DNA of 64,000 nt from Candidatus Krumholzibacteriota bacterium (GTDB lineage: Bacteria; Krumholzibacteriota; Krumholzibacteriia; LZORAL124-64-63). Each line of letters opens with the position of its first letter. The stretch's first letter is position 1. The position numbers and the translations under genes are program-made. The stretch is taken from the NCBI GenBank assembly GCA_024275485.1, contig JAJRZA010000037.1, positions 5,241 to 69,240 of the forward strand, in the 5' to 3' direction. Under the pieces are notes generated by a model, which saw nothing but the letters and a program-made list of their open reading frames with translations, did not search any database and had not been told where the DNA came from. Below are positions 12,092 to 64,000 of the stretch, one piece after another.

Positions 12092-13083
12092 TCCCAGGGT
12101 ACCTTCAGGTTTAGGGTTTTCAACTTGGTAGTCAGTTCGTCCCGTTCACGGTTGCGGATGAAACCACCCTTTTTGGCGGGTTTCAACCAGCCTGCGTCCG
12201 TGGCGATACGCATGGCGTCTTCCATGTCGCCCGTTCCAATGGCGGCCATGATTTTGTGTTCGATGCGAGAGTAACTCACCGATCCCATGCGGTAGTCTTC
12301 GAAGGCTTCCCAGGCCAGCGGCACCCAGCGCGCCACGATTTCCCTGCCGATGATGGTGGCGTAGTCGCGGATTTCCTTTTGGGCGTGGGGGTCCATGCGC
12401 AAGGCCAGGAAGTGCAGCAAATTGTGCAGATCCATTTTCCAGTAGGCTTCGGTGTAGGTGCAAAGGGGCAGGTCTTTGCGGGCCTGCTCGCGTGCGACAC
12501 CGAATTCGAGGCGTTGGTTGTATACTTGGCGGGCGGTGTTTTTGAAATCGGTTTCGGCCTGGGTAAGTTCGACACCAGTTTTTGAATCGAGCCAGCCGTC
12601 GCTGCCCTGTTTGTTGTCGATGGCCTGGACGCGCCATTGGTCAGGTGCGGTGGTTTGGGAGGAATCGATGGCAATGGAATAGCGAGTGCTCGTTTCATTT
12701 GTTGAGGCAGTTCTATGACGTATCCACTGCCGCCACGCATCCATCGGCACCCGGATATGCAGCTTCAAACTGCACATCTCAAAAGGCGTGGTATGACGAT
12801 GCCGCAACAAGTACCGAATCAACCCGCGATCATCGCTGGTCTTCTTCGTCCCCTCCCCATAGGAAACCCTCGCGGCCTGCACGATGGCCTGGTCGTCACC
12901 CATGTAGTCGATCACTCGAATCAATCCATCGTCCAGAACCTCAAAAGGAACACCCAGAATTTCATCGAGGGCTGGCACTCCGGGGCGGTTCAGTTTTTCA
13001 GCGCGCTGATCCATCATCTCTCCTGTGGTCGAATGATCGTTATTCGAATGATTTGCTGATGGCCTGTTCGATGATGGAGTCAT
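12088..13083 (-). CDS. thyX: FAD-dependent thymidylate synthase ThyX
   Basis: ThyX signature RHRTASTNETSTRY (RHR...S...S.RY). The start may be the later Met (MMDQ, 13017). Confidence 0.9.
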   Translation of the reverse strand: MTPSSNRPSANHSNNDHSTTGEMMDQRAEKLNRPGVPALDEILGVPFEVLDDGLIRVIDYMGDDQAIVQAARVSYGEGTKKTSDDRGLIRYLLRHRHTTPFEMCSLKLHIRVPMDAWRQWIRHRTASTNETSTRYSIAIDSSQTTAPDQWRVQAIDNKQGSDGWLDSKTGVELTQAETDFKNTARQVYNQRLEFGVAREQARKDLPLCTYTEAYWKMDLHNLLHFLALRMDPHAQKEIRDYATIIGREIVARWVPLAWEAFEDYRMGSVSYSRIEHKIMAAIGTGDMEDAMRIATDAGWLKPAKKGGFIRNRERDELTTKLKTLNLKVPWE

Positions 13084-15301
13084 CGGCGTGTCGGGCCTTG
13101 GTGATTTTCAGGTTTGGCTCCAGTTCCATGGCCCGTTCGATGGCAAACTCGGCGCCTGCGTTGCGGGCCCAGGCCCGACGTGCGACACCGTTGTTCACGT
13201 CCCAATGCAGCATGGAGCGCAGTCGTTGTGCGCAGTCGTCGCTGCCGTCGAGCAACATGCCGAATCCACCGTTGACCACTTCACCCCAACCAACTCCGCC
13301 GCCGTTGTGCAGGCTGACCCAGGTGGCGCCGCGAAAACTGTCGCCGATGCAGTTCTGCACCGCCATGTCGGCGGTGAACATGCTGCCGTCGAAAATGTTG
13401 CTGGTCTCGCGATATGGGCTGTCGGTGCCGGAGACATCATGATGATCGCGACCGATCACCACTGGGGATAAAATTTCGCCCCGTTTGATGGCCTCATTGA
13501 AAGCAGCGGCGATGGCCCGGCGGCCTTCAGCGTCACTGTACAGGATGCGAGCCTGACTGCCGACCACCATTTTGTTGGCACCGGCCTGGCGGATCCAGGT
13601 CAGGTTGTCCAAATACTGCTGGCGGGTCTCTTCGGGGGCGATGGCAACCAGTTTTTCCATCACTTCGCCGGCGATGCGGTCGGTGGTGAACAGATCCTCG
13701 GGCTTGCCGCTGGTGCACACCCAGCGGAAGGGCCCGAAACCGTAGTCGAAACAAAGCGGCCCCATGATGTCTTCCACGTAGCTGGGATAGATGAAGCGGC
13801 CATCGGGTTTGGCAATGTCGGCTCCGGCGCGGCTGCACTCCAGCAGGAAGGCGTTGCCGTAGTCCCAGAAACGAGTGCCCCGGGCAACCATTTTGTTCAC
13901 CGCTTCGATGTGCCGCAACAAAGATGCCTGGACTTTTTCTTTGAAGGTCGCGGGATCGGCGACCAGCATTTCGTTGCTCTCTTCATAGGTCATGTCCACG
14001 GGGTAATAACCGCCGGTGAAGGGGATGTGCAGGCTGGTTTGATCGCTGCCCAGTTCCACGGCTATGTCGCTATCGACCAACGCTTCCCAGAGATCGACGA
14101 TGTTTCCTTGATAGGCCAGGGCCACGGCTTCCTTGTCGGCTTTGGCCTTTCGAACTCGATCCAACAGGGCAGGCAGTTCGGTATAGACTTCATCCACCCA
14201 TCCCTGTTCGTGACGTTTTTTCACGGCATCGGGATTGATTTCGGCCAGCAATCCCACACAGCCGGCGATGACTGCCGCTTTGCCTTGAGCGCCACTCATT
14301 CCTCCCAGTCCGCTGGATAGATACAAGGCACCGGGCAGGGGATCTTCACCCTCAAGATAAAGCCGTACCACACCCAAGATGCTGATGGTTGTGCCGTGCA
14401 CGATACCCTGGGGGCCTATGTACATGAAGCTGCCGGCGGTCATCTGGCCGTAGCTTGTTACGCCGAGGGCGCTCATGCGGGTGTAGTCGTCGCCGTTGCT
14501 GTAGTTGGGGATGACCATGCCGTTGGTCACCACCATGCGGGGAGCATTCTTGTGACTGGGAAAGAGGCCCATGGGATGGCCGGAGTACATGGCGAGGGTT
14601 TGTTCCTAGCTCATCTCCGACAAGTACTTCATGGTCAGCAGGTATTGGGCCCAGTTCTGGAAGACGGTGCCGTTGCCGCCGTAGGTGATCAGTTCGTAGG
14701 GGTGCTGGGCGACGGCGGGGTCGAGGTTGTTTTGAATCATGAGCATGATGCCGGCAGCCTGGGCGCATTGGACCGGATATTGGTCGATGGGCCGGGCGTG
14801 CATATCGTAGGTGGGGCGAAAGCGATGCATGTAGATGCGACCGTGGCTAGCCAGTTCATCGGCGAACTCGGGGGCCAGTTCGGCGTGCATTCCGGGTGGG
14901 AAATAGCGCAGGGCATTGCGCAGGGCCAGTTTCTTTTCGTCAGCCGAAAGCAGCATCGGTCGCTCGGGGGCACGACTGATGGCCGGATCGTCCTTGGGCA
15001 TGGCTGGAATAGTGTCGGGGATGCCTTGGCGGATTTGCTGCTGGAAGGATTCGGGGCTTGTTTGTGCGCTCACGGCGCGACCTCCTACAAAGGTGATTGG
15101 TTGCCGGGAAGATAGCATCTGGAAAGCGGATGGGAAAGGCCTGGACCGATGCTCAGATCTCTTTTTAACGATAAATATCATGAAGGCCGTCCCAGGTTCA
15201 TTTCCCGGTGGCAACAAGGATTGCACCCTGGAATTTGCGTTCTGTCCTTGTTCCCGGGAGATTTGGTGTATATTTGTTGTTGACCACAGGAACTTATCCA
15301 C
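13040..15301 (-). pseudogene. hutU: Urocanate hydratase (long, UROC1-like form) interrupted by a single in-frame TAG
   Basis: ORFs 14606..15301 and 13040..14590 share a frame and together give a full urocanase (ALRNALRYFPP..., NNLDPAVAQHPYELITYGGNG, SGLGGMSGAQ, GGGVGWGE). The TAG at 14606..14608 sits in ...MKYLSEMS*EQTLAMYSGHP, at the position of E in human UROC1 (KMTEEQTL). No frameshift. Confidence 0.8.
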
Positions 15302-15319
15302 CTTGCAGGAAGCGACGAC

Positions 15320-15727: not shown

Positions 15728-15821
15728 TGTGTTTTTTTGGTGTTCACCCATCCCATCTCTCGGTTATATTTGCAGATAAACACAAGCTCTACCCCGGCTC
15801 CCACAGCAGAAAGGCCACCTC

Positions 15822-16358: not shown

Positions 16359-16369
16359 CGGAGGAAATC

Positions 16370-21148: not shown

Positions 21149-21263
21149 AGAATAATCGCTTTGGGAGCTTTTTCAATGGCTTTGACCTATGCTGTTCCGC
21201 AGGCTACTATCTTCCAGTACGGTAATTTCCAACCGGAACCTCATCAAGAAAACAGGAGAGCTC

Positions 21264-22154
21264 ATGGACGCCAAAGTTCTGCAGCAGAATCTCCTCGAGC
21301 TCATCCGCCGCACCAGCTGTCAGCTGCCGACGGATGTGGCCCGGGTCATCGACAAGGGATGGCGCAGGGAGAAAAAGGATTCGTCGGGCAAGTACGCCTT
21401 GGCAGTGATTCGCGACAACATCGGCATGGCAAGGGACAAGAGTCAGCCTCTTTGTCAGGACACGGGGGTCATCATTTGTTATGTGGAACTGCCATCGTGG
21501 CTGAACGAAAAAACGTTCAAGATGGCCTATGACAAGGCTGTCGTGCGAGCCACGAAAGTTGGTTACCTGCGACAGAATTCCGTGGACTCCATCACTGGTG
21601 AAAATTCAGGGAACAACCTCGGCCCCGGCAACCCCAGCTACCATTTTCATCCGGCTAAAGGCAAGAGCCTAAAGGTGCGCATGATGCTCAAGGGTGGCGG
21701 CTGTGAGAACATGAGCATCCAGTACAGTTTACCGGACAACCGCATCGGCGCAGGCCGTGATTTGGCGGGAGTGCGCAAGTGCCTGCTCGACGCCGTGCTC
21801 AACGCCCAGGGCAAAGGTTGCGGACCCGGTATTCTGGGTGTGTGCATCGGTGGCGACCGGGGAAGCGGATATGTGGCTGCCAAAGAAGAATTCTTTCGCA
21901 CTCTGGACGATAAAAATGAAGACAAGCGTTTGGCCAAACTGGAAAAACAGATCCTTGATGAAGCCAATACCCTGGGCATCGGTCCCATGGGCTTTGGTGG
22001 CGAGACCACTTTACTGGGTGTGAAGATCACTCATCGTAACCGCGTGCCCGCGTCATTCTTTGTTTCGGTTTCCTACATGTGCTGGGCTTTCCGTCGCAAT
22101 GGAATCATGATGAACGAAAAAGGGAAGATTTCCCGCTGGCTGTACGAATCCTAG
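21264..22154 (+). CDS. Fe-S hydro-lyase (class I fumarate/tartrate dehydratase), alpha subunit
   Basis: CQDTGV motif and conserved GGGCENMS and GICIGGDRGSGY blocks. ATG with an AGGAGAG RBS. Confidence 0.85.
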   Translation: MDAKVLQQNLLELIRRTSCQLPTDVARVIDKGWRREKKDSSGKYALAVIRDNIGMARDKSQPLCQDTGVIICYVELPSWLNEKTFKMAYDKAVVRATKVGYLRQNSVDSITGENSGNNLGPGNPSYHFHPAKGKSLKVRMMLKGGGCENMSIQYSLPDNRIGAGRDLAGVRKCLLDAVLNAQGKGCGPGILGVCIGGDRGSGYVAAKEEFFRTLDDKNEDKRLAKLEKQILDEANTLGIGPMGFGGETTLLGVKITHRNRVPASFFVSVSYMCWAFRRNGIMMNEKGKISRWLYES

Positions 22155-22166
22155 GAGGCTCGGATC

Positions 22167-22733
22167 ATGTTGCTTGAAGCACCTTTTACTGAAGAGAAAA
22201 TCCGCGCCCTGAAAGTCGGCGACAAGGTAGAAATCACCGGCCTGGTTTTCACTGGTCGCGATGCGGTTCACAAATACCTGCACGACGGTGGCAAACCGCC
22301 GGTGAATCTGATGAACAGCATCATTTATCACTGCGGTCCCGTGGTTGTGAAGGAAAAAGGCAAGTGGGTGGTCAAGGCCGCCGGGCCCACCACGAGCATC
22401 CGCGAAGAACCCTACCAGGGTCCATTGATGGAGCAGTATGGTATCCGCGCCGTCATCGGCAAGGGTGGCATGGGGCCGAAAACCCTGGAGTATTGCCGGA
22501 AAGTTGGTGCTGTATATTTCCACGCCATCGGTGGTGCGGCTCAGGTTTTGGCCGAGCGGGTGGTCGAAGTACCCAATGTGCACATGGCGGAAGAGTTTGG
22601 CGCCCCGGAAGCCATCTGGGAATTCGTGGTGGACAAGTTCCCGGTGGTGGTGACCATGGACTCCCATGGAAATTCATTGCATGATCAGGTTCTGGCCGAC
22701 TCTCAGGAACGACTGAAAAAGATGATGGGTTAA
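22167..22733 (+). CDS. Fe-S hydro-lyase (class I fumarate/tartrate dehydratase), beta subunit
   Basis: Motifs TGLVFTGRDAVHK and GKGGMG, 188 aa, directly downstream of the alpha subunit. Confidence 0.85.
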   Translation: MLLEAPFTEEKIRALKVGDKVEITGLVFTGRDAVHKYLHDGGKPPVNLMNSIIYHCGPVVVKEKGKWVVKAAGPTTSIREEPYQGPLMEQYGIRAVIGKGGMGPKTLEYCRKVGAVYFHAIGGAAQVLAERVVEVPNVHMAEEFGAPEAIWEFVVDKFPVVVTMDSHGNSLHDQVLADSQERLKKMMG

Positions 22734-28913: not shown

Positions 28914-29462
28914 ATGCGTAAATTCGCCATGATCAATTTGGCCCTCCTGGTGGTAGCCGGTTTGCTTGTCGCCGGTTGCAATGATACTGAAACCGTCGAA
29001 GAAAAACCCTGGGTCGTTGCCGAGCCGGGTCTCAGCTTCATTGACTCTGTCGTGGGGTCGGGCGACGTTTGCAAGGCGGACGATTTTGTGGAAGTCCATT
29101 ATACCGGCTGGCTCTGGGAAGCAGATGAAAGAGGGCAACTGGGCAAAGGCAAGCAATTCGACAGCTCCGTCCAGCGCGGCACCCCCATTGCTTTTCCACT
29201 GGGCATGAGCATGGTGATCCCGGGCTGGGACAAGGGCCTGATCGGCATGAAGGTGGGCGGCAAGCGCTCCCTGCTGATCGAACCGGCCATGGGTTTCGGC
29301 GAAAACGGTCGTCCCCCGGTCATTCCTCCCAGTAGCACTCTCTTTTTCGATGTGGAACTGGTCAGCCTGCCCAGGCTGGAATTCGAGACCCTTGAAGATG
29401 GTACCGGTCCCGTGGCTGAACTGGGCGACCAGGTCAACATGAACTACACCGGCTGGTTATAG
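28914..29462 (+). CDS. FKBP-type peptidyl-prolyl cis-trans isomerase lipoprotein (first, intact FKBP domain)
   Basis: Lipobox LLVAGC and an FKBP domain (VHYTGWL...FDSS...IPGWDKGLIGMKVGGKR...FDVELV). Ends at the TAG at 29460..29462. Confidence 0.8.
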   Translation: MRKFAMINLALLVVAGLLVAGCNDTETVEEKPWVVAEPGLSFIDSVVGSGDVCKADDFVEVHYTGWLWEADERGQLGKGKQFDSSVQRGTPIAFPLGMSMVIPGWDKGLIGMKVGGKRSLLIEPAMGFGENGRPPVIPPSSTLFFDVELVSLPRLEFETLEDGTGPVAELGDQVNMNYTGWL

Positions 29463-29710
29463 GAGAACGGTGCCAAGGGCACTCAGTTCGATTCCTCCAC
29501 CAAGACCGGCCGGCCATTCAAGTTCACCCTGGGTGCGGGGCAGGTCATTCCGGGCTGGGACAAGGGCATTGAAGGCATGAAAGTGGGCCAAAAAGCCCGT
29601 TTGATCATTCCGCCGAGCATGGGTTACGGTGCCCGGGGCAGTGGGGGTCGTATTCCCCCCAACGCAACGCTCTGCTTTGATGTTGAACTGGTCAGCATTG
29701 AAGGGAAATA
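29463..29710 (+). pseudogene. Second FKBP domain in frame after an in-frame TAG (tandem-FKBP gene apparently truncated)
   Basis: Directly after the TAG the same frame encodes [82 protein letters not shown]. The TAG falls where domain 1 has Trp (YTGWLW / YTGWL*). Confidence 0.7.
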
Positions 29711-29794
29711 GCTGGGATTTTGCTTAATTTGATAAAATTCTGGGGTTTTGCTTGCCAGAAAGTCCCATATCTGCTAAATTTGCTCCGCTTTTGG

Positions 29795-29826
29795 GCAGAC
29801 GTTTCTTTTGAGGCGTCTGCTCTTTA
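29795..29826 (+). terminator. Candidate intrinsic terminator after the FKBP gene (GCAGACG...CGTCTGC then TCTTTA)
   Basis: 7-bp perfect stem and 12-nt loop, with a weak T-tract. Confidence 0.35.
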
Positions 29827-29936
29827 AGGGCTCTTCATGGGCTCTTTTCGATTTATTGATTTCCGCCCTGTTTTGCTGGATGATATCCAATTGCAGGTTG
29901 CGGTGTGCTCAAAAGCCGTCCAACAGGAGGACCAAA

Positions 29937-31982
<2,046 letters not shown>

Positions 31983-38159: not shown

Positions 38160-39959
38160 ATGTTCGCCCGCATTCTGCCGATTTTCTCTTTGCTGCTTTT
38201 GATGAATGTTCCCGGTCTTCTTTTGGCTGACCTTCTTCCCATTCAAATGGACGGCGATTTCAGTGATTGGGACAATGCGACGGTTCTAGCGTCCGACCCC
38301 GCCGGTGACGGAGGATCCTCGGGCATCGATTTTCTTCAGGTATGGGTTGGCAACGATCAGGATTATCTATACATCCGATTCGACACCACGGGTGAAGTTC
38401 AACCCGACGAAGGCCAATCCATGCGCCTTTACCTGGACACCGACCTGAATTCCTCGACGGGAACCTATTTCAATGGCATCGGAGCCGAACTGGTTTGGTA
38501 TTTCGGCTGGCGCAACGGCACATTCCGGGCGGGCAGCTCCACCTACGATTTGATACACTCGGATATCGGTTTGTTGATGGGCCCCACCGTGAGCAACAAC
38601 CAATTTGAAGTGGCCATTCGTCGTGACGCAAGGCCGGCCGCCGGGGTGGACCTGTTCAGCTCCGGCCCCGTCAGGTTTATTCTCCAGGACGCCTCATCCA
38701 GTGGCGATGTTTTTCCCAACAGCGGCAGCGTGGCTTACACCTTCAGCTCCGGTAGTCTTGCCGTGCCGTCCTTGCCAATGGATCGCGACATGCCCGAACA
38801 CCTTAGATTGGCCACCTACAATATCGAAGGCGACGGTTTGTTTGACGGCGGCACCCGAGAGGATGCCCTGGAGCGCATCTTTCAGGCTATCGACGCCGAT
38901 GTTTTTATCATCAATGAGGTTTGGAACAGCAGCGCCACTGCGGTGCGTTCAAAAGTGGAGCAGTTCCTGCCCAGCGGTGCCGGCCAGGCCTGGTATGCGG
39001 TGAAACGGGACGATGGCAACGTCATTGTCAGCCGTTTTCCCATTTTGCAATCCTGGGCAGTCTTCCCCGGTCATCGAATAACAGCCGCCTTGCTGGACCT
39101 GGGTGCAGAATCCCCTTCCGACCTGCTGGTGCTGGCAAACCACTGGCGCTGTTGCAGTGCCGACGATCTGCGTCAGGACGAAGCCGATGCAACGATTGCC
39201 TTTCTGCGGGACGCGCGCACCGATGGCGGGGTGATCAATCTTCCCGAAGGAACGCCGGTGCTGTTCGGTGGGGATTTGAACCTGGTGGGCTGGCGGCAAC
39301 AGCTGGACACTATTCTTACTGGTGATATCCAGGATGAGGGCCAGTTCGGTAATGACTCGGCTCCCGACTGGGACGGTTCCGATTTCGCCCAACCAATGAC
39401 CCGTCAACCCGACTTCAGGGCCTCCTACACCTGGCGCAAGGATTGGAGCTACTACTATCCCGGCCTGCTGGATTATATCCTGTACACTGACAGCAACCTG
39501 GATTTGCACAACCACTTCATTCTGGAAACGCGCACCATGACCGAAGCCAGTCTGGCGGCCGCAGGACTTTTGGAAACTGACACCGAAACTGCAAGCGACC
39601 ACGCTCCCCGGGTGGCGGATTTTACGCTGGACAATGGTCTTTCCCCTGTGCCGATGGTGGTGTCAGCCGGCTGGGCCCGTTTGCTGCCCAACCAGCCCAA
39701 CCCTTTCAACCCCTCCACGGCCATCCGTTTTGAATTGGATCGCCCGGCCGAATGCACCCTGGCGGTCTTTGATTTACGCGGTCGACAGGTGCGCAGCTTT
39801 CCGGTTCAGAACTTGCCCGAGGGCTCTCACCAAGTCCATTGGGATGGCTTGTCCGATGAGGGGCGTCCGGTCTCTTCGGGAGTCTATAGGGCCGCTATGG
39901 TCTTTCGGTCAGCAGGGAAGGAAATCGCCGGGTCGCAGGCCATGGTCCTGTTGAAATAA
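38160..39959 (+). CDS. Secreted EEP-family (endonuclease/exonuclease/phosphatase) protein with a T9SS C-terminal sorting domain
   Basis: Signal peptide, an N-terminal beta-rich domain, an EEP core (LATYNIEGD...FIINEVW...GGDLNLVG...SDHAPRV), and a C-terminal CTD (PNPFNPSTAIRFELD...VFDLRGRQV...GVYRAAMVF). Confidence 0.75.
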   Translation: MFARILPIFSLLLLMNVPGLLLADLLPIQMDGDFSDWDNATVLASDPAGDGGSSGIDFLQVWVGNDQDYLYIRFDTTGEVQPDEGQSMRLYLDTDLNSSTGTYFNGIGAELVWYFGWRNGTFRAGSSTYDLIHSDIGLLMGPTVSNNQFEVAIRRDARPAAGVDLFSSGPVRFILQDASSSGDVFPNSGSVAYTFSSGSLAVPSLPMDRDMPEHLRLATYNIEGDGLFDGGTREDALERIFQAIDADVFIINEVWNSSATAVRSKVEQFLPSGAGQAWYAVKRDDGNVIVSRFPILQSWAVFPGHRITAALLDLGAESPSDLLVLANHWRCCSADDLRQDEADATIAFLRDARTDGGVINLPEGTPVLFGGDLNLVGWRQQLDTILTGDIQDEGQFGNDSAPDWDGSDFAQPMTRQPDFRASYTWRKDWSYYYPGLLDYILYTDSNLDLHNHFILETRTMTEASLAAAGLLETDTETASDHAPRVADFTLDNGLSPVPMVVSAGWARLLPNQPNPFNPSTAIRFELDRPAECTLAVFDLRGRQVRSFPVQNLPEGSHQVHWDGLSDEGRPVSSGVYRAAMVFRSAGKEIAGSQAMVLLK

Positions 39960-41973: not shown

Positions 41974-42432
41974 TTGCACCTCAGGATATTGATGCACGCA
42001 GTCTTTGTGAAGACCCTACTCTTTTTGGCCCTGACAGCTTTGGTCGGTGCTGTTCCCTGCCTTGGCCTGGACAATCTGGAACCCTGTGTTGAGCTGAATC
42101 TGGCTGAGGTTGCAGGAACCTTTCTGGGGGAACGCCCCATAGCCAGGGAAGACCTTGCCACGGAATTGCTTTCAATTTGTTGCCCCAGTGCCATCTCTCT
42201 TGGTTCTATCGGGTACACCCTGGCCTCACCCCAGAAAGTGGCCCTGAGCATTTACGATCAGCAGGGTCGGGAGGTTGCCAGCCTGGTGGATAGAACCATC
42301 GTCAGTGGTCGTCATCGTGCAATGTGGGATGGTTGCCGGAAAAATGGGCAGCCAGTCAAGGATGGGACCTATTTCCTCCTGATGAAAACCGAAAAGTCGG
42401 TTAAGCTGCGCAGGATGGTTTTGGCCAGGTAG
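41974..42432 (+). CDS. Small secreted protein consisting essentially of a T9SS-type C-terminal domain
   Basis: Signal peptide followed by a CTD-like block (ISLGSIGYTLASPQKVALSIYDQQGREVASL...AMWDG...GTYFLLMKTEK). Start may be the ATG at 41992. Confidence 0.55.
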   Translation: MHLRILMHAVFVKTLLFLALTALVGAVPCLGLDNLEPCVELNLAEVAGTFLGERPIAREDLATELLSICCPSAISLGSIGYTLASPQKVALSIYDQQGREVASLVDRTIVSGRHRAMWDGCRKNGQPVKDGTYFLLMKTEKSVKLRRMVLAR

Positions 42433-50468: not shown

Positions 50469-51689
50469 ATGTCCACCGACTTGGTCAAAGCCCGCATCAT
50501 GACCGTCATGCGCAATCTGCCGCCTTTGCCTGCGGTGACGCGCCAATTGCTGGCCGTGATGCGTGATGATGATTAATCTGCCGACGATGTCACCAAGGTG
50601 CTCTCAGCAGATGGTATGCTGGCCGCAAAAGTTCTCAAACTTGTGAACAGCTCGTTTTATGGAGTGGCGGCAGAAGTGACTACCATCAGCAGGGCCGTGG
50701 TTCTTCTGGGTTTTTCCGGTATTCGCAACCTTGCCCTGGGATTCGGCACAGTGGAGGCGTTGTCGGAGATGGGGTCGAAATCGGACATGACAGATTACTG
50801 GGCCCACGCCATGGCTACCGCGACGGCAGCCCAGGCTCTAGCGCCTCTCGTCAACCGACGCACTGATCCCGAAGAAGCTTTTATTGCCGGCCTGATGCAC
50901 GACATCGGCGCCTACGTGTTGGCCGCGAGCGTACCTGAATCCTATGGTGACATTATCATGCTCCCGGCTTCCGAGCGGCTGCGGAAAGAACAGGATGTAG
51001 CGGGTTTTACCCATGCCAAGGTGGGGCAGGGGCTGTTGAAATTCTGGGATCTCCCAGAGGTGTTTTCCAATGCAGCGCGCTATCACCATGATGTGGAGGT
51101 TACATCCGGTGAAGATCAGCCTCTGACTTCCCTGGTGGCTCTGGCTGATATCCTGGCCACCATACATGGTGGATCTTTGATAACCGACGCATCTGAAAAC
51201 GATTTGAACCGGATGTGCGGAGCTGTGGGAATCAAGCCCGAACACCTTTGCACAACCCTCAATACAATAGCTCAGAAAATTGGCGAAATGGCGAAATTCA
51301 TGAAGATTTCCGGGGCAGGATCCTCCCTGGAAAAAGCGGAAAACAAGATTCCCACCATGACCTGTGTGGTGGTGACCACAGACGAATCCCGCCGAAATCT
51401 TGTGGAGTGTCTGCTGAAGCATTTGGGTCATGAGACTTTTCCCATGGATAGCTATTTCAATCAGGAACCCGGTGGCAGTGAGGTTGGACTGGTCCTTGTG
51501 GATCCACAGGCCCTGAGCCGGGATCAATTGGATCGTCTGGCCGTTTATCTGGTTGATCAAAGCACCAGCATGGGTGTTTTGGTGGAAAACGGTACCACCA
51601 TTCCGGATTCCATGACAGCCTGGCCCACCATCAACTTTATTTTTGGGCGGCGCCAGCTGGCTGAAATCATACAAATGCAGCCTGCCTGA
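50469..51689 (+). pseudogene. HDOD-domain signalling protein with an in-frame TAA at 50574..50576
   Basis: The ATG at 50469 encodes MSTDLVKARIMTVMRNLPPLPAVTRQLLAVMRDDD-[TAA]-SADDVTKVLSADGMLAAKVLKLVNSSFYG. This spans the conserved HDOD N-terminus (LPxLPxV...DPD.S..EL...IS.DP.L.AKvLrlaNSayyG), and the TAA sits inside it with no frameshift. Confidence 0.65.
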
Positions 51690-54513: not shown

Positions 54514-57500
54514 ATGTCCGCTCAAGGATTTCGTTCCGGATTGATGTTTCCCTTTTTGATTTTATTGATCCTTGCCCCTGTTTCGGGAGTGGGTGCTGCG
54601 GGCGACGGCATCGTGGTCTACGACGGTGAGTTTGCTCCAGAGCTCTGGTCGTGGGAAATCACCGCCGCTGGAAAATCTTACCCGGTTCTTGAGGGAACCC
54701 GCAGTCTGGCCGAACCCGGTCAGCCAATTGTGCCGGTGCAGGAACTCATGCTCTTGATTCCGGTCGGCCGGCAGGTGGCCGCAGCCTGGGTAGAACCCCT
54801 GGCCACCCGGATGGAGGATCGTTCCACGGTTATGGCCGTGGCAGGGCCTCATATCACCGATGGAGAAGTTGCTTTGGCGACGGCCCGCCTGGAGCCGGAA
54901 AATGGTCGATTTCCAGGCCAGTGGGGAGAGTTTACCGGGACTCACACCTGGCGGGGTTACAACATCCTGACGCTCAATATTTTTCCGGCACGGGTCACCG
55001 AAACGGCTGACGGAATCGGCATTGAATATCTTCAGGATTTTTCCATCAGGGTATCGTATGCCATCGGCGGTGGTGATCGCCTGACCATTCAGCGGGAACG
55101 TATGATCCCGGGGGAACAAGAAGCCAACATCGAAATCCTGCGGCAAATAGTGCACAATCCCCAGGCCATTGCAAACTATGCCAGGTTCAACGGCGTACTC
55201 GTGGAAGAGGACAAGGGTTTCTACAACCCCACACGAACCCCAAGTCTCAGCGGCAGCCCGGTGCAGTATCTCATCATCACCAATGAAGAAATGAAAAGTG
55301 AATTCCAGCGTTTGGCCGATTACAAGACCAGCCTGGGTTTGGCTTCACTGGTGGTGACTCGGGAATCCATCTCCGCAAATTTCCGCAACGGTGCCGACAT
55401 TCAGGAAACCCTGCGCATGTTCATCCAGGATGCCTACAGCAAATGGGGAACCGAATACGTGCTGCTTGCAGGAGACACTGATGTGCTGCCTGCCCGCTAT
55501 GTGGACAACCACTTTTATCCCTACAATTCTTCAACCTTGATTCCGGTGGATTTGTACTTTGCCTGCCTTGACGGCACCTGGAATGCCAACGGCAACGCTC
55601 ACTATGGTGAAGCAGACAATGAATCGGCAGGTGGTGTGGGCGATGATGTTGATTTTGCAGAGGAAGTGTATTTGGGGCGGGCAACCGTCAGCTCTTCCGT
55701 CGATGCCCAGGTTTTTGTGGATAAGGTGATTTCCTACGAAAGCACACCCCAGGGTTCGGACTGGACCAACCGCATCTTGTACGCTTGTGAAGTGCTCTTT
55801 CCCTCCGATTATCAGGATGGCGACAACATCTTTCTGGACGGTGCCGAATTCTCTGATCAAATGGTCACTGAATTGGTGGAACCCTGCACGGATTTGGAAT
55901 ATCTGCGCATGTACGAATCCAACCAGGATTATCCCCGGGACCTGCCTTTGACCAAGGCTGCCTTGATCGACAGCCTCAACACGGGGCACTATGGAACCCT
56001 CAACCAGATTGGTCATGGCTATTTCACCGTGATGTCCGTGGGTGATGACCTGTTCACAACCACTGATGCCGATGCCCTGACCAACGGCGATCACCTGTTC
56101 ATGATTTTTTCCCTGAACTGTGCTTCGGCCGCTTTTGATATGAGCTGCCTCATGGAGCGTTTTCTTCAGAATCCCCATGGAGGCTCCATCGTCTCGATTG
56201 GTTCTTCCCGGGCGGCCTTTCCCTACAACGTCAACGTCTATCAACAGGGTTTCTTTGAAGCGCTCTATTGCACCGTTGATAATCGTGTCGGCAAGTTGAT
56301 CGCCCTGAGCCGGTTGCCGTATGTGGGCAATACCATCAACAATTACGTGGATCGGTGGACCTTCGAGAACTACACCTTGTTGGGCGACCCAACAGTGCCT
56401 ATCTGGACCGGTGTCCCCGGGCAGATGATCGTGACTGCAGGCAGTCTGGACCTGGGACCAAATCAGTTTGCGGTGAATATCATGAATGGGTTGGGCGGTC
56501 CGGTGGAAAATGCCCGGGTTTGTCTGTCCCGTGAAGGTGCGGACATCTCTACCGGTTTCACCGATGGGAGCGGATCGGTGACCCTGGACTACTTGGCCGA
56601 TGCCCCCGGTGAGGTAGAATTGAAGATTTCCGGCCGGGATATGGCCCAATATGTGTCCATCATTGATGTTGAGGCGGGTGTGACCTATTTCTCCCTGAAC
56701 AGTCTTGTGGTGGGGGATAACGGTTCCTCAGGAACCACCGGCAACAGAAATGGAATAGTTGAATCTGGTGAGGCGGTAGTACTTGTCCCCATCCTGGTGG
56801 AAACCGGTGGTGCAGGCACGACAGGGTTGGTCGGTACCTTGAGCACCACCACCGAAGGGGTTACGGTTGTCACCGGAACGGTGGATTTTATCGATGTCTC
56901 AGCTGGTGGGATTTCTTATCCTGATGGGACGATCCTGGTGAAATTCGATGCAGGGATTGCCGACGGAACGCCTGTAAACTTCCGTCTTGCCCTGATAGAC
57001 GATTCTTCTGCAACTTATCTGGTTGAGTGGACTACGGTGGTCAAGGCTCCCGAACTGGAAGCCGTCATGTTGGATTGGGAAGACAGCACCTTTGGCAACG
57101 GTGATGGGATTCTGGACATCGATGAACGTGTGGTCTTGTCCGTTCGGTTTAAAAATTTTGGCGCCGGCCGTGCCGATCTGGTGGATCTTCGTTTGAGGAC
57201 CCTCAACTCCAATGTTACTCTCTACGACACCATTGGATCTTTCACCAACTTGGAGTTCATGGAAACTACCGGGGAATTGAGAAGCTTATCCTTGTCGCTG
57301 AGTGATCCAACCCGAAAATCCCAGAGCACAATCGTGATAACCGACAACTACGAACGTGTCCTTGAGCATGACCTGTATGTGCAACGCCCGGCGGCTCCGG
57401 TTAATTTTGTGACCGATACGAGCCAGGGCTCTTCGGTGATTGCATTGCTCTGGGACCCCGTTGAAGATGACAATATTTACGGATACAATATTCTGCGCAG

Positions 57501-59364
57501 CGATTTTCCCACGGGCCCGTTTTTCCCTGTGAACTCCGATGTGGTTGTTGGTACATCCTACTACCGTGATGAAAATCTGAATCAATTGACCAAATACTAT
57601 TATCAGGTGCAGGCCCTGGCCTTTCCTTTGGTACCAAGTGCCGTTTCCGAGGTGATTGAAGAGTCCACGGCGCCGGCCCTGCTGTCGGGTTTCCCCATCA
57701 TTTTTGGTGCAGAGACCAGTGGACACCTGGCCGTTGGCGATGTGGACGGCGACGATATCCCGGATATTATCCTGGGCAGCGATGAGTTGTATGTATGGCA
57801 TCACGACGGCACCGAGTTGATGGATGGCGACAACGACAGTCAAACCCTTGGCCCGGTGACCAACCTGCATTCTATTTTCCAGCCGGCGGGTATCGTTCTG
57901 GCCCAATTGGACGACCAACCGGGTATGGAAATGATTGTCTCGGACCGTGGCGTCGTTTCACAAATCTACATTTTCCGCAAAGACGGTTCCGTGCTTCCTG
58001 GATGGCCCCAGACAACTCACATAGGCAGCGGATCCAAATGGTCCTGGGCCACTCCCGCCGTCGGGGATATCGATGGCGATGGCGATTTGGAAATCGTTGT
58101 CAACACTCTTAACGGCCGCACCTGGGCCTGGCACCATGATGGCACCGAGGTGATGGATGGCGACAATGACCCGGCCACCAACGGGGTTTTTCTTGTGCGC
58201 CCCGGAGCCACCTGGGAGTATGGAGTTGGTTCGCCGTGCCTGTACGATCTTGATGGAGATGGAGCCAAGGACATCATTTTTCCTGCCGCCAGCGACAACC
58301 TGGGCGGCCACCGCATTGTGGCCCTCAGATCCGATGGGTCCGCCGTGGCAGGTTGGCCGTATGCCACCCTGGACCGGGTGAACAACAGTCCCGCCCTGGG
58401 TGACCTCAACAACGACGGGGTCATGGAGATTGTTTTCTATGACTATGGCAAAAATCTGTACGCGGTTCAGCAGAACGGAACCGACTACAGCGGATTCCCC
58501 GTAACCTTCAATTCCGGTGCCATGCCCGGTGCCGCACCTTGCATTGCCCTGGGTGATTTGGACCAGGACGGCCAATTGGAAATCATCTTCGCTGGAAATA
58601 TCGCCGGAGACTCGAGTCTATTGGTGTGTGTTGATACGGACATCAACGGCGGCACCAGTGGTCAGGCCATGAACGGTTGGCCCGTCGAATTGCCGGGCAG
58701 CACCGAAGGCAGCCCCGTGGTGGGAGATATCGATGGCGATTCCATCCCGGATATCCTCTATGGCATTGGCGGAGGAGATGAAAACGCACCGAACAACCTG
58801 TACGCCTTCAATGCCAGTGGGGTGGCCATCGACGGTTTCCCCATTACTCTCGGCGCGGCCCTGACTCCATCGCCGGTTATTTGCGATATCGACCGCGATA
58901 ACGATGTGGATATTGTTTACGGCGGCTGGGGTCGGAAACTCTATGTTTGGGACATGCCTTTTGCATACGAGATTGAAAATAGTCCCTGGCCCACCTTCCA
59001 CGGCAACATGCTTCGCGACGGTGTCTACGGCTCCTCCCATTTGACGGGGGTGCAGGATGTCAATCCTTTGCCTGCAGCTGCATTCAGGATGGAAGCTCCA
59101 TACCCCAATCCCTTCAATCCATCGGCCAGCATCCGGCTGCATGTGCCGGTAATCAATGGATCATCGAACCTGGATCTTGTGGTGTACGACCTCAAGGGCA
59201 GAAAGGTTCGTACCCTGCACCAAGGAGCCATTTCCGCAGGCTGGCATACTCTGGTTTGGGATGGCAGGGATAATTCAGGGCGGGGTCAATCCAGTGGGAT
59301 TTATTTCATGCGGGCCAGCAGTGGGGGACATTCGAGTATCCAGAAAATGACGCTGATAAAATAG
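54514..59364 (+). CDS. Giant secreted peptidase C25 (gingipain-like) with FG-GAP/VCBS beta-propeller repeats and a T9SS C-terminal sorting domain
   Basis: Signal peptide; C25 catalytic domain (YLIITNEE..., YVLLAGDTDVLPARY, catalytic NQIGHGYF and SLNCASAAFD); at least seven FG-GAP-like repeats (VGDVDGDDIPDIILG, VGDIDGDGDLEIVV, LYDLDGDGAKDIIF, and others); CTD PYPNPFNPSASIRL...VVYDLKGRKV...GIYFMRA. Confidence 0.8.
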   Translation: MSAQGFRSGLMFPFLILLILAPVSGVGAAGDGIVVYDGEFAPELWSWEITAAGKSYPVLEGTRSLAEPGQPIVPVQELMLLIPVGRQVAAAWVEPLATRMEDRSTVMAVAGPHITDGEVALATARLEPENGRFPGQWGEFTGTHTWRGYNILTLNIFPARVTETADGIGIEYLQDFSIRVSYAIGGGDRLTIQRERMIPGEQEANIEILRQIVHNPQAIANYARFNGVLVEEDKGFYNPTRTPSLSGSPVQYLIITNEEMKSEFQRLADYKTSLGLASLVVTRESISANFRNGADIQETLRMFIQDAYSKWGTEYVLLAGDTDVLPARYVDNHFYPYNSSTLIPVDLYFACLDGTWNANGNAHYGEADNESAGGVGDDVDFAEEVYLGRATVSSSVDAQVFVDKVISYESTPQGSDWTNRILYACEVLFPSDYQDGDNIFLDGAEFSDQMVTELVEPCTDLEYLRMYESNQDYPRDLPLTKAALIDSLNTGHYGTLNQIGHGYFTVMSVGDDLFTTTDADALTNGDHLFMIFSLNCASAAFDMSCLMERFLQNPHGGSIVSIGSSRAAFPYNVNVYQQGFFEALYCTVDNRVGKLIALSRLPYVGNTINNYVDRWTFENYTLLGDPTVPIWTGVPGQMIVTAGSLDLGPNQFAVNIMNGLGGPVENARVCLSREGADISTGFTDGSGSVTLDYLADAPGEVELKISGRDMAQYVSIIDVEAGVTYFSLNSLVVGDNGSSGTTGNRNGIVESGEAVVLVPILVETGGAGTTGLVGTLSTTTEGVTVVTGTVDFIDVSAGGISYPDGTILVKFDAGIADGTPVNFRLALIDDSSATYLVEWTTVVKAPELEAVMLDWEDSTFGNGDGILDIDERVVLSVRFKNFGAGRADLVDLRLRTLNSNVTLYDTIGSFTNLEFMETTGELRSLSLSLSDPTRKSQSTIVITDNYERVLEHDLYVQRPAAPVNFVTDTSQGSSVIALLWDPVEDDNIYGYNILRSDFPTGPFFPVNSDVVVGTSYYRDENLNQLTKYYYQVQALAFPLVPSAVSEVIEESTAPALLSGFPIIFGAETSGHLAVGDVDGDDIPDIILGSDELYVWHHDGTELMDGDNDSQTLGPVTNLHSIFQPAGIVLAQLDDQPGMEMIVSDRGVVSQIYIFRKDGSVLPGWPQTTHIGSGSKWSWATPAVGDIDGDGDLEIVVNTLNGRTWAWHHDGTEVMDGDNDPATNGVFLVRPGATWEYGVGSPCLYDLDGDGAKDIIFPAASDNLGGHRIVALRSDGSAVAGWPYATLDRVNNSPALGDLNNDGVMEIVFYDYGKNLYAVQQNGTDYSGFPVTFNSGAMPGAAPCIALGDLDQDGQLEIIFAGNIAGDSSLLVCVDTDINGGTSGQAMNGWPVELPGSTEGSPVVGDIDGDSIPDILYGIGGGDENAPNNLYAFNASGVAIDGFPITLGAALTPSPVICDIDRDNDVDIVYGGWGRKLYVWDMPFAYEIENSPWPTFHGNMLRDGVYGSSHLTGVQDVNPLPAAAFRMEAPYPNPFNPSASIRLHVPVINGSSNLDLVVYDLKGRKVRTLHQGAISAGWHTLVWDGRDNSGRGQSSGIYFMRASSGGHSSIQKMTLIK

Positions 59365-59403: not shown

Positions 59404-59449
59404 AAGACCCCGCAATCCTTGTTCCGGGCGGCGGGGCCTTGGTTTTTCG
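59404..59449 (+). terminator. Rho-independent terminator after the C25 gene (AAGACCCCGC...GCGGGGCCTT then GGTTTTTCG)
   Basis: GC-rich stem with one mismatch, followed by a T5 run. Confidence 0.5.
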
Positions 59450-59469
59450 TCGATCCTGAAATGGCCGTC

Positions 59470-61377: not shown

Positions 61378-61618
61378 GGTTCTTCCTTTTTGGGGTTCTA
61401 GGGAAGGTTGAGTTTGATCGCGACAAAGATATATAGAGGGGGTTCTTACGGCAAGGTTGGGGCGGGCAATGTGGGCAAGACCTTAATGGAAACGTCGCGT
61501 TTGAGTTTGGTGTCCCTTGCGAGATAGACCTCGCCCACGCCGCCTTTGCCAAGCAAGGAGGTGATTTCGTATTGGTCGAGTGTCTTGCCTAGAACTTGGG
61601 GCTCCTTGGGGGTTAAAT

Positions 61619-64000
61619 TCAGTTCAACTCCGATAACCAGTTCACCACCACACTTAGGGTGCGGGGTTGGGATTTGTCCGGAATGTGTGCAATCAGGAAA
61701 CGCTGAGAGTCGGGAGTGGGCGAAAAGGCAATTCCATCGGGCATCGTTATGGTACCCAATCCGCCAAATAGGGTCTTCGGCCGATCAACAGCCAGGTCGG
61801 TGGTCGTGGAGCGTTCAAGATCGACGGTGGCTGCCATCATGATCGATTGTTGTTGGAAGTACAATTCGTCCCCGGTGGGGGACTATACGGGTTCTTGGCC
61901 CCCGGCGAGGGAAACCTGCACGCGAGAACCCCCGTCGGGAAAAGGCATGGCGTAAATTTCAAACTGGCCGCTTTCGTTGCTGTGGTACGCCAGCCAGCGT
62001 CCGTCTGGTGAGACGGTTCCGGCTTCTTCCTGGAAATTCGTTTGAAGAAAAGGGCGTGGCTCTCCTTCCCCATCCAAGGGCAATAGCCAAATATCCCCAC
62101 TAGTGCCGGTTGCGGTTTCAGTAAAGACCAGCCACCTCCCGTCGGGAGAAACACTTGTCGGCACCGTGTCAATGGGCTTTTTTAACAGCAGCTGAGTGTC
62201 GCTTGAACCATCGGCCGGACGCTGGTAGATGGTGTACTGCGGTTCTTCGCCGTTGTAAACTACGGTGCGACCGTCCGGTGTCCAGATGGGGTTGAGATCG
62301 CTAGCGGGGGAGAAGGTGAAGCGCGAAGACGTGCCACGTTCAAGATCATGGATCCAGATGTCGGTGTTGTGATTGTCGGAAATGGAGACGGCTATGCGGC
62401 GGCCGTCCGGTGATAATCTGGGTTTGCTATAATGGCGTGCCGGCAGATCGAGGACAGCCAATTCTCCCAGGCGATCGACCCAGGCCAGATGTCTAGGTGC
62501 GTTGATCACCGAGGCAGTGGCGTAGACAAGTGTGCCGTTGGCCCCGAAACCCAGTGGTGAAAAGCCGTCGCTGACTTCAAGGTAAACGTCCTCGAGAATG
62601 GGTTCGGCGCTGCCGGTGACGGCTATTTTCCGGCAATCAAACGGTGCAGCCATCAATTTGCCATCGCGCACAAAAAGAAGATGGCCGGTTGGTGCCCAGC
62701 GACCGAAGGAGCCTCCTTCTACCAGGACCCGCTGTTCACCACTTTTAAGGGAAAGTGCCATGATTCGTGCGTTTTCAATGGGCGTCGAGTAACCGGTGTA
62801 GATGACCCACTCATCGTCTGGAAGCAACTGTGGCCACCAATGCCCTAATTCATGATGGGCCCGATCGGGTGTGGTCAAGAGTTGGGGTTGGCCTCCGGCC
62901 GCTGGGACAACAAAAAGTCCGCTGGCGTAGTTGCTGGTGAAGATGATGCGATCATCTGTTGTCCACGCTCCACCACCCCATTCGGTTTGGCACAACTCAA
63001 TGGGGGAGCCACCGTCCAGAGAGACTTTTTGCAACTTGCTGCCGCGAGTGAATCCCAACCAATGGCCGTCAGGTGAAAAAAATGGAGATTCGGCATTTTC
63101 GGTTCCTGGAATCGGGACCAGGGTCGGGTCGTCCATGGCGCGCAAAAAAAGTTGGTTACCCATAGGTGTCTTGAGGGAAACGACAAACGCTTCGCCGGAT
63201 GGTGAGACTGCCAGTAGCTGGCGGTCTCCTGCGACCCACTGGTCCTGCGGCATCGTCAGATCAAAACGAATTGGACTGGGCGCAACCGGGACCTCGCTGC
63301 TAAATACCTGCCAGCCCATGATCATGGCCATCACCGCCATGACCGTGGCAGTAATCCAACCAGCCCAGACTTTTCTTGTCCCACCGATGGTCATTGGCGC
63401 GATGCTCCCCTCGGCGGGTTCATAGGCCGAAGTGCCGTCCTGCAATATTTCTTCCATCACGATGCGGGCATCGGCGATGTGGTGCATGCGCTGGCGCTTG
63501 TCACGCTGGAGACAGCGTTGCAGCAGGCGCCGCAAGCTTGGGGGCATGTCGGGCGGCAGCGCTGTCCAATCGGGATCGCTGCGCAGAACCATTGCCAGAG
63601 TGTCGCTAACGGTTTCGCCGGCAAAAAGCCGACAACCGGCCAGCAACTCCCACAGAATCACTCCAAAGGCCCAAATGTCCGTGCGCGCGTCAACCTCGTG
63701 GCCACGTGCCTGTTCGGGGCTCATGTAAGCGGCGGTACCGAGGATGACACCGGCTTGGGTCATGGCTGCGGTCAGGGTTGGGGAGGTGCCCGGCTCGGTG
63801 GTGGCCTCTTCCTCGCCCTGGTAGGCCCGGGCCAGGCCGAAGTCGAGAATCTTGATGAGCCCGTCCGCGCTCAATTTCACGTTGGCGGGTTTGAGGTCGC
63901 GGTGAACGATTCCTTTAGCGTGAGCCTCTTCCAGACCGGAGGCAATTTGCACCGCGACAGCCAAGGCTTCAACCGGTTGCATGGCACCGCGACTGATGCG
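61619..64000 (-). pseudogene. Ser/Thr protein kinase fused to a TolB-like beta-propeller, interrupted by an in-frame TAG at 61883..61885; the 5' end lies beyond the window
   Basis: The kinase subdomains (HRDLKPANV, DFGLA, SPEQ) are followed by WD/TolB-like repeats. After the TAG the same frame continues SPTGDELYFQQQ...[12 protein letters not shown]...[12 protein letters not shown], the family's typical C-terminus. The TAG aligns with the conserved Trp of the P-x-W-S-P-D-G repeat. Confidence 0.75.

What the first reader, a model, noticed from the sequence alone, without database searches (positions are those of the whole stretch)
13040..61885. Cluster of nonsense-only gene disruptions: five conserved genes in 64 kb carry single in-frame stop codons and no frameshifts
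The affected genes are hutU (TAG), tandem FKBP (TAG at a Trp position), HDOD (TAA), kinase-TolB (TAG at a Trp position) and spx-like (TGA at a Cys position). All other roughly 50 genes are full length. TAG is also used as an ordinary terminator here (EEP lipoprotein, LOG-like gene, and the FKBP gene itself), so a simple stop-codon reassignment is not supported. The bias toward G-to-A or C-to-T changes (TGG to TAG, twice) fits transition-type mutation, cytosine-deamination damage, or consensus errors across strain variants in a metagenome assembly. If the stops are real, it would mean ongoing gene decay or programmed readthrough.
Basis: inference. Interest (0 to 1): 0.6.

Follow-up and report, generated by a model that had tools for sequence, protein, structure and literature searches.

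The report
One selenocysteine codon, four private nonsense codons
The five in-frame stops are real in the deposited sequence, but one is an ordinary selenocysteine codon in a known selenoprotein family. The other four are unrelated single-base nonsense changes unique to this one metagenome-assembled genome (MAG), most likely base errors or very recent knock-outs, not a new genetic code.

Summary
The window comes from a Candidatus Krumholzibacteriia MAG. This lineage has been sampled once, as a single 175-kb NCBI contig.

All five in-frame stops exist. They do not share one cause.

**Selenocysteine codon.** The spx-like TGA (11227-11229, minus strand) lies outside the stated range. It is a selenocysteine (Sec) codon:
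- TGA is kept in all 68 homologous loci examined.
- It is the first position of a UxxC motif.
- The protein matches NCBIfam NF041106, "ArsC family (seleno)protein", at 124 bits against a cut-off of 85.
- A conserved small hairpin follows the codon.

**Four nonsense changes.** Each sits where relatives carry a sense codon:

| Gene | Stop | Relatives have |
|---|---|---|
| hutU | TAG | Glu (GAA/GAG) |
| FKBP | TAG | near-invariant Trp (TGG) |
| HDOD | TAA | Ser (TCT/TCC) |
| kinase-PD40 | TAG | near-invariant Trp |

- Two are G>A transitions and two are G:C>T:A transversions, so there is no single mutational signature.
- The replaced residues differ, and 21 genes end normally in TAG or TAA. Reassignment and pyrrolysine are therefore rejected.
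- No frameshifts were found.
- The 1,060 codons downstream of the stops remain open.
- Sibling MAGs show no nonsense codons in 19,904 aligned codons.

Without reads I cannot separate consensus base errors (my lean) from very recent real loss-of-function mutations. hutU alone shows hints of relaxed constraint. The finding is ordinary and of low interest.

The parts
10921..11268 (-). ArsC/Spx-like selenoprotein gene (115 codons; UxxC redox motif; ends in TAG)
   Evidence: Translation. Pfam ArsC match. NCBIfam NF041106 'ArsC family (seleno)protein' at 124.1 bits against a cut-off of 85. Aligns to the Spx CxxC motif in solved structures.
11227..11229 (-). In-frame TGA, a selenocysteine codon (first position of U-T-S-C)
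   Evidence: TGA is at the homologous position in L054 and in all 67 metagenome loci examined. Coding sequence is conserved on both sides.
11194..11210 (-). Small conserved hairpin 17-19 nt after the UGA (candidate bacterial SECIS; apical loop AGUUC)
   Evidence: Alignment A3 of 23 distinct sequences. Pairs at columns 20-25 / 31-36 are 79.7% paired, against at most 60% for slid controls. UA/GC covariation occurs at pair 21-35. The fold is not exceptional thermodynamically (z = -0.58), and there is no Rfam hit.
13040..15073 (-). hutU, long-form urocanate hydratase (677 codons), interrupted
   Evidence: Pfam Urocanase_N, Urocanase and Urocanase_C across the stop. 120 full-length homologues at 73-93% identity.
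14606..14608 (-). In-frame TAG at codon 156 of hutU; relatives have Glu (GAA/GAG), so G>T
28914..29711 (+). Tandem-domain FKBP lipoprotein (265 codons), interrupted in the second domain
   Evidence: Pfam FKBP_C twice. Homologues of 263-265 aa.
29460..29462 (+). In-frame TAG at a near-invariant Trp; relatives read TTG TGG where the window reads TTA TAG (G>A)
   Evidence: Alignment A1. Codon alignment with L133, L134 and L135.
50469..51689 (+). HDOD-domain protein (406 codons), interrupted at codon 36 inside the HDOD domain
   Evidence: Pfam HDOD over residues 17-208. Orthologues in L002, L003 and L004.
50574..50576 (+). In-frame TAA; relatives have Ser (TCT, TCC, TCC)
61619..64000 (-). Ser/Thr protein kinase fused to a PD40/TolB-like beta-propeller (5' end beyond the window), interrupted 87 codons before its end
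   Evidence: Pfam Pkinase and PD40. Homologues align through the C-terminus.
61883..61885 (-). In-frame TAG at the near-invariant Trp of the last PD40 repeat (G-G-x-x-P-V-W-S-P), so TGG>TAG (G>A)

Best explanation
The cluster is a composite, not one phenomenon.

(1) The spx-like TGA is read as selenocysteine. It sits at the first position of the UxxC redox motif of a known ArsC-family selenoprotein, and a small downstream hairpin probably serves as the SECIS element. This part is close to certain.

(2) The other four stops (TAG x3, TAA x1) are independent single-base nonsense changes. They occur in four functionally unrelated genes and are private to this one MAG. They are recent: no second lesion has appeared in the 1,060 codons downstream. 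They are not decoded by any programmed mechanism.

I lean to the view that they are base-substitution errors fixed in the consensus of this single-sample assembly. Possible sources are low or uneven coverage, damaged or amplified template, or polishing across strain variants. Such errors create internal stops without frameshifts. The step from 'private nonsense substitutions' (shown) to 'assembly errors' (inferred) cannot be verified without reads.
For: **Selenocysteine:**
- TGA is conserved in all 68 homologous loci examined.
- NF041106 matches above its cut-off.
- The hairpin is conserved and shows covariation.
- The family is already listed as a selenoprotein in PMC2398784 (Arsenate reductase 2, cd03032, UxxC) and PMC1794560 (ArsC-like).

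**The four stops are private:**
- Relatives have Glu, Trp, Ser and Trp at these positions.
- Relatives have no nonsense codons in 19,904 aligned codons.

**Not a reassignment:**
- Four sites replace three different residues.
- 12 genes end in TAG and 9 in TAA at the same positions as their relatives.

**Leaning to error:**
- The pattern is substitutions only, with no frameshifts. From general knowledge of mutation-accumulation studies, natural inactivating mutations should include roughly two frameshifts per nonsense change. That gives P of about 1% for four nonsense and no frameshifts.
- Downstream frames are intact and still conserved.
- FKBP, HDOD and the kinase show no other decay.
- The density of about 62 internal stops per Mb is far above that of sibling MAGs.
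- PMC11017572 shows that inflated internal-stop counts track assembly error, and that low-quality reads raise internal stops more than frameshifts.
- The lineage is represented by one assembly only, so nothing corroborates the stops independently.
Against: - Four stops imply a consensus error rate of roughly 0.15-0.2%, or about 100 errors in the window. That is high for an assembly contiguous enough to give a 175-kb contig.
- The window shows no excess of private amino-acid changes over its relatives.
- There is no relative-rate excess in HtpG.
- There are no deviations at conserved columns of HtpG (0 of 89) or HppA (0 of 106). Power is low in both cases: fewer than one error is expected.
- hutU shows gene-specific signs of relaxed constraint, which fits a real pseudogene better. 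It has 7 deviations at columns conserved in at least 95% of sequences, against a median of 2 among 120 sequences. It has 15 second-position changes against 5 in its sister.
Confidence: 0.48

Rival explanations
1. The four UAR stops are real, recently fixed loss-of-function mutations. This would be incipient gene decay in a lineage under relaxed selection or after a bottleneck. The spx TGA is still selenocysteine.
For: - The stops are in the deposited consensus.
- hutU carries 7 replacements at columns that are otherwise at least 95% conserved, against a median of 2.
- hutU has a second-codon-position excess of 15 against 5. That is what relaxed constraint after inactivation predicts.
- Intact HtpG and HppA are clean at conserved columns.
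- The window has no general excess of private changes that a noisy assembly would add.
- All four changes are of the G:C>A:T or G:C>T:A kind that dominates spontaneous mutation.
Against: - There are no frameshifts, no IS elements, no truncations and no second lesions in 48 genes or in the 1,060 codons downstream of the stops.
- Three of the four genes show no other sign of decay.
- Four unrelated genes hit within less than about 3% neutral divergence is an unusually high and unusually pure nonsense load.
- Sibling MAGs have none.
Confidence: 0.37
2. UAG and UAA are partly read through in this organism, for example by an ochre-type suppressor tRNA. In-frame UAR codons would then be tolerated and accumulate, and the four genes would remain functional.
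For: - All four unexplained stops are UAR and none is UGA, although 20% of possible nonsense targets give TGA. That predicts P of about 0.4 for none in four, so the support is weak.
- Downstream reading frames remain open and conserved.
- Two of the three TAGs sit at Trp codons.
Against: - The replaced residues are Glu, Trp, Ser and Trp, so no single inserted amino acid fits.
- None of the sites is conserved in relatives.
- TAG and TAA terminate 21 of 48 genes at the same positions as in relatives.
- Genes ending in TAA are no closer to a back-up in-frame stop than those ending in TGA (medians 20 and 16 codons; the script failed before the TAG set).
- The window contains no tRNA.
Confidence: 0.05
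3. One reading: all five are equivalent nonsense disruptions produced by one transition-type or deamination process.
For: Two of the stops are TGG>TAG.
Against: - The TGA is conserved in all 68 homologous loci examined and belongs to a curated selenoprotein family.
- hutU is G>T and HDOD is C>A.
- The window-private spectrum is GC-enriching, not deamination-like.
- TATGG and CCWGG motifs are not depleted.
Confidence: 0.02
4. Pyrrolysine, or a reassignment of TAG.
For: There are three in-frame TAG codons in 64 kb.
Against: - The sites correspond to Glu and Trp in all relatives, not to known Pyl positions.
- None of the host proteins is a methylamine methyltransferase.
- TAG terminates 12 genes.
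- The window contains no pyl genes or tRNA.
Confidence: 0.01

Closest known systems
ArsC family (seleno)protein, NCBIfam NF041106 (ArsC_rel_Se_1). Listed as 'Arsenate reductase 2, cd03032, UxxC' in the GOS selenoproteome (PMC2398784) and as 'ArsC-like' in PMC1794560.
   Same: Full-length match above the curated cut-off. In-frame TGA at the first position of UxxC, aligned with the first Cys of the Spx/ArsC CxxC motif. Small size of 115 aa. A hairpin directly downstream of the UGA.
   Different: Nothing substantive. The host phylum (Krumholzibacteriia) is simply another carrier. The hairpin is small and matches no Rfam SECIS model.
Spurious 'internal stop' pseudogenes caused by assembly or base-calling error (Cooley and Wright 2024, PMC11017572)
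   Same: Internal stops without frameshifts. They are absent from near relatives and scattered over unrelated conserved genes, with reading frames otherwise intact.
   Different: The density here (4 in 64 kb) is far above the roughly 1 per Mb the paper expects at 10-fold or lower coverage. No reads or coverage data are available to confirm the cause. hutU shows extra replacements that suggest real relaxation.
Bacterial gene decay (pseudogenisation) as seen in recently host-restricted or bottlenecked lineages
   Same: Conserved genes inactivated by premature stops that orthologues lack.
   Different: No frameshifts, deletions, IS elements or multiple hits. All lesions are single and recent.
Stop-codon recoding systems (pyrrolysine at UAG; genetic codes 4 and 25; suppressor tRNAs)
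   Same: In-frame stop codons inside conserved genes.
   Different: No consistent replaced residue, no conservation in relatives, and the same codons are used as ordinary terminators.

Membership tests
ArsC family (seleno)protein (NF041106) | Sequence match to the family model above the curated cut-off | tested here: met
   124.1 bits against a cut-off of 85; residues 6-110 against model positions 2-107 of 107.
ArsC family (seleno)protein (NF041106) | In-frame UGA at the redox-active position (UxxC), conserved across homologues | tested here: met
   TGA in L054 and in all 67 metagenome loci examined, with the motif G-U-x-S-C. It aligns to the first Cys of the Spx CTSC motif.
ArsC family (seleno)protein (NF041106) | Bacterial SECIS hairpin shortly downstream of the UGA | tested here: inconclusive
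   A conserved 5-6 bp hairpin lies 17-19 nt after the UGA, with a G in the apical loop and some covariation. The fold energy is not exceptional and there is no Rfam match.
ArsC family (seleno)protein (NF041106) | Selenocysteine machinery (selA, selB, selC, selD) in the same genome | not testable with these tools
   Only the 64-kb window is available. It contains no tRNA and no sel genes.
Stop-codon reassignment or pyrrolysine | The codon is no longer used as a terminator, or its use is strongly depleted | tested here: not met
   TAG ends 12 and TAA ends 9 of 48 genes. The FKBP and hutU C-termini coincide with those of relatives.
Stop-codon reassignment or pyrrolysine | In-frame stops correspond to one consistent amino acid and recur in relatives | tested here: not met
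   The replaced residues are Glu, Trp, Ser and Trp. Relatives have no UAR in-frame stops in 19,904 codons.
Stop-codon reassignment or pyrrolysine | A cognate suppressor or Pyl tRNA and its synthetase are present | not testable with these tools
   None is in the window.
Genuine pseudogenes (gene decay) | The disruption is absent from orthologues | tested here: met
Genuine pseudogenes (gene decay) | Signs of relaxed selection or further lesions in the disrupted genes | tested here: inconclusive
   hutU has 7 conserved-column deviations against a median of 2, and 15 second-position changes against 5. FKBP, HDOD and the kinase show nothing beyond the stop. No second stop or frameshift occurs in the 1,060 downstream codons.
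Genuine pseudogenes (gene decay) | A mixed lesion spectrum (frameshifts, deletions, IS elements) as expected from spontaneous mutation | tested here: not met
   No frameshifts or truncations among 48 genes.
Assembly or consensus error | Internal-stop count elevated relative to close neighbours, with substitutions only | tested here: met
   3 against 0 in aligned codons, p of about 0.04. No indels.
Assembly or consensus error | Reads contradict the consensus, or depth is low at the sites | not testable with these tools
   No reads are available. The window's own contig is not retrievable. The lineage is a singleton in the protein collection.

The most novel reading that the evidence does not exclude
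This Krumholzibacteriia lineage carries a UAR-reading suppressor tRNA, or otherwise leaky UAG/UAA termination. In-frame UAG and UAA at conserved Trp, Glu and Ser codons would then be tolerated while the same codons still terminate genes. That would be an early, ambiguous stage of stop-codon capture in a free-living bacterium.
Probability: 0.04. Interest if true: 0.75.

Novelty: already known. Interest (0 to 1): 0.2.

Why it matters
**As it stands.** The result is a quality flag and an annotation correction.
- One 'broken' gene is an intact selenoprotein that gene callers truncate. The relative's annotation shows only a 57-aa fragment.
- Four conserved genes in this MAG should be treated as suspect base calls or recent knock-outs before any metabolic inference is drawn, for example about loss of histidine degradation.

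**If reads confirmed all four stops.** The lineage would carry an unusually pure and recent nonsense load. A genome-wide census and a search for suppressor tRNAs would then be worthwhile.

Tried and rejected
- **Retrieving the window's own contig or an independent assembly.** Exact-protein look-ups for ThyX, HtpG and P0081 found nothing. Cluster look-ups show the lineage is a singleton with no accession.
- **Deamination or oxidative-damage signature.** The four stops are G>T, G>A, C>A and G>A. The 694 window-private substitutions are GC-enriching and unlike damage.
- **Context motif.** Both Trp>TAG sites follow rare NTA codons, which looked striking (7 of 408 TGG codons). However, TATGG/CCATA and CCWGG are not depleted, and close double substitutions are common (84 in 13.4 kb). 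I treat this as coincidence.
- **Palindrome or template-switch idea.** The HDOD stop creates GATTAATC, but the other sites show nothing comparable.
- **A noisy sequence overall.** Relative-rate tests, private-change counts and conserved-column tests on HtpG and HppA show no excess. Power is too low to exclude an error rate of about 0.2%.
- **A sixth in-frame stop.** The TAG between fumarase alpha and beta is the normal two-subunit arrangement, also split in L133.
- **Long antisense ORF pairs.** Those opposite hppA, HtpG and the C25 peptidase gene are shadow ORFs.
- **Rfam.** No SECIS or any other RNA family was found in the window.
- **Literature.** A search for stop-codon peculiarities in Krumholzibacteria returned only three papers that mention the two terms in passing; none was opened.
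Full report
**Origin and gene content.**

The window is 55% G+C and has no tRNA genes. HtpG finds its nearest relatives in Candidatus Krumholzibacteriia MAGs. The best is CSMAG_177 (GCA_030590265.1) at 94% amino-acid and 87% nucleotide identity.

I called 48 genes and annotated them with Pfam. They include:
- glycosyltransferases and O-antigen ligases,
- GH77, ThyX, long-form HutU, LepB,
- two-subunit fumarase,
- a tandem FKBP lipoprotein,
- H+-pyrophosphatase,
- SRAP, a TRAP transporter, PhoU/PHO4, DinB,
- an HDOD protein,
- a 1,616-aa C25 peptidase,
- HtpG,
- a kinase-PD40 fusion.

Ten window proteins looked up by exact sequence are each recorded on a single NCBI contig of 175,019 bp, and eight of them are alone in their 90%-identity cluster. 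The lineage has therefore been sampled only once.

**Check of the observation.**

All five in-frame stops are present:

| Gene | Stop | Coordinates |
|---|---|---|
| hutU | TAG | 14606-14608 |
| FKBP | TAG | 29460-29462 |
| HDOD | TAA | 50574-50576 |
| kinase-PD40 | TAG | 61883-61885 |
| spx/ArsC-like | TGA | 11227-11229 |

The last one lies outside the coordinates given. Pfam domains span each stop.

The stops are in the deposited record. The truncated products P0081 (hutU after the TAG) and P0142 (FKBP before the TAG) are in the public collection at 100% identity, both from the 175-kb contig.

No window gene is frameshifted relative to its relatives. Each aligns as a single full-length HSP; the only exception, thyX against L054, is split by an intein in the relative.

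TAG terminates 12 genes and TAA terminates 9.

An apparent sixth case is the TAG between fumarase alpha and beta, which lie in the same frame. This is the normal two-subunit arrangement and is also split in a relative.

**The TGA is selenocysteine.**

- The syntenic relative L054 (GCA_053985975.1) has TGA at the same codon, with conserved coding sequence on both sides.
- A metagenome scan returned 76 loci. All 67 in which the position could be read have TGA, preceded by a conserved 13-residue N-terminus and followed by x-S-C.
- With Cys substituted for the stop, the protein matches NCBIfam NF041106, 'ArsC family (seleno)protein', at 124 bits (cut-off 85).
- It aligns to the CxxC motif of solved Spx structures.
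- A 5-6 bp hairpin 17-19 nt after the UGA is conserved: 79.7% of cells are paired, against at most 60% when the partner is slid. Pair 21-35 shows UA/GC covariation. The hairpin is thermodynamically unremarkable and matches no Rfam family.
- The family is already in the literature as 'Arsenate reductase 2, cd03032, UxxC' (PMC2398784) and as 'ArsC-like' (PMC1794560).

This stop is therefore not a lesion.

**The four UAR stops.**

| Gene | Window | Relatives | Change |
|---|---|---|---|
| hutU | TAG | 120 full-length homologues; the eight inspected have Glu or Asp; the closest three read GAA/GAG | G>T |
| FKBP | TTA TAG | Trp nearly invariant in 16 aligned relatives; three relatives read TTG TGG | G>A |
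| HDOD | TAA | three orthologues have Ser (TCT, TCC, TCC) | C>A, via TCA |
| kinase-PD40 | TAG | near-invariant Trp of the G-G-x-x-P-V-W-S-P repeat | G>A |

Taken together:
- Each stop is private to this sequence.
- There are two transitions and two G:C>T:A transversions.
- Three different residues are replaced.

This excludes a reassignment or pyrrolysine, and it argues against a single mutational signature.

**Is the sequence generally noisy or decaying?**

- Relatives carry no nonsense codon in 19,904 aligned codons, apart from the shared Sec TGA and two stops upstream of true start codons. The window has 3 in about 10,300 aligned codons, giving p of about 0.04.
- The window has no excess of private amino-acid changes: 45 against 69 and 84; 61 against 36 and 104; 32 against 35 and 53.
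- There is no relative-rate excess in HtpG.
- There are no deviations at conserved columns of HtpG (0 of 89) or HppA (0 of 106).
- The window-private spectrum over 13.4 kb is GC-enriching.
- hutU alone stands out. It has 7 replacements at columns conserved in at least 95% of sequences, against a median of 2. It has 15 second-position changes against 5 in its sister.
- The 1,060 codons downstream of the four stops contain no further stop or frameshift. My estimate is that this bounds the age of the lesions to less than about 3% neutral divergence.

**Interpretation.**

Two readings remain.

Base-substitution errors in the consensus would explain:
- the pure nonsense pattern without frameshifts,
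- the recency of the lesions,
- the scatter over unrelated genes,
- the contrast with sibling MAGs.

This agrees with Cooley and Wright (PMC11017572). They found that inflated internal-stop counts track assembly error, and that low-quality reads raise internal stops rather than frameshifts. Against this reading, it needs roughly 0.15-0.2% consensus error in a 175-kb contig. Only 3.4% of possible substitutions in these genes create a stop.

Real recent knock-outs would explain the extra replacements in hutU and the otherwise clean sequence. Against this reading, spontaneous inactivation should include frameshifts. General knowledge puts indels at roughly 10-16% of base substitutions, against about 3-5% of substitutions being nonsense. 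That makes four nonsense changes and no frameshifts about a 1% outcome.

My probabilities are:
- 0.48 for consensus error,
- 0.37 for real mutation,
- 0.05 for suppression or readthrough,
- the remainder for minor alternatives or unassigned.

**Leads that went nowhere.**

- Both Trp>TAG sites follow rare NTA codons. Motif depletion is absent, and close double substitutions are common.
- The HDOD stop creates the palindrome GATTAATC.
- Genes ending in TAA are no closer to a back-up in-frame stop than those ending in TGA.

**Verdict.**

One stop is a known recoding event in a known family. The other four are either errors or ordinary recent nonsense mutations. Nothing supports a new decoding mechanism. 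Read-level data would settle the rest.

Noticed in passing
window 12088-13083 (-); L054 4310-5842: thyX has no intein in the window. Its orthologue in the 90%-related MAG GCA_053985975.1 carries an intein (Pfam Intein_splicing; 510 aa against 331 aa).
   Followed up: partly
window 21189-22733 (+): Fumarase alpha and beta lie in the same frame, separated only by TAG plus 12 nt. This mimics an in-frame stop but is the normal two-subunit form, also split in L133.
   Followed up: yes
window 29457-29462 and 61883-61888: Both Trp>TAG codons are preceded by rare NTA codons (TTA TAG and GTA TAG). NTA codons make up 1.5% of all codons, and only 7 of 408 TGG codons follow one. In FKBP the relatives read TTG TGG, so two G>A changes lie 2 nt apart. 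No motif depletion was found, so this is probably coincidence.
   Followed up: partly
window 50571-50578: The HDOD TAA creates a perfect 8-nt palindrome, GATTAATC.
   Followed up: no
window 29712-29936: The FKBP-hppA spacer is conserved across three MAGs. It holds a terminator-like hairpin (GCAGACG...CGTCTGC), a promoter-like block, and an SD plus GTG start for hppA at 29937. The ORF-finder's TTG start at 29808 is therefore too far upstream.
   Followed up: partly
L054 6863-7036: In the relative's gene calls the selenoprotein appears only as a 57-aa fragment downstream of the TGA. The family is systematically truncated by standard gene callers.
   Followed up: yes
window 38160-39959, 41974-42432, 54514-59364: Three proteins end in FlgD_ig / CHU_C-type C-terminal sorting domains, which look like type IX secretion cargo. 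They include a 1,616-aa C25 peptidase with FG-GAP repeats and a 152-aa protein that is little more than a signal peptide plus the sorting domain.
   Followed up: no
whole window: Eight of ten window proteins looked up by exact sequence are alone in their 90%-identity cluster among about 15 billion proteins, and all ten come from one NCBI contig. The genome is not among the GTDB r232 species representatives (best HtpG match 94%).
   Followed up: partly
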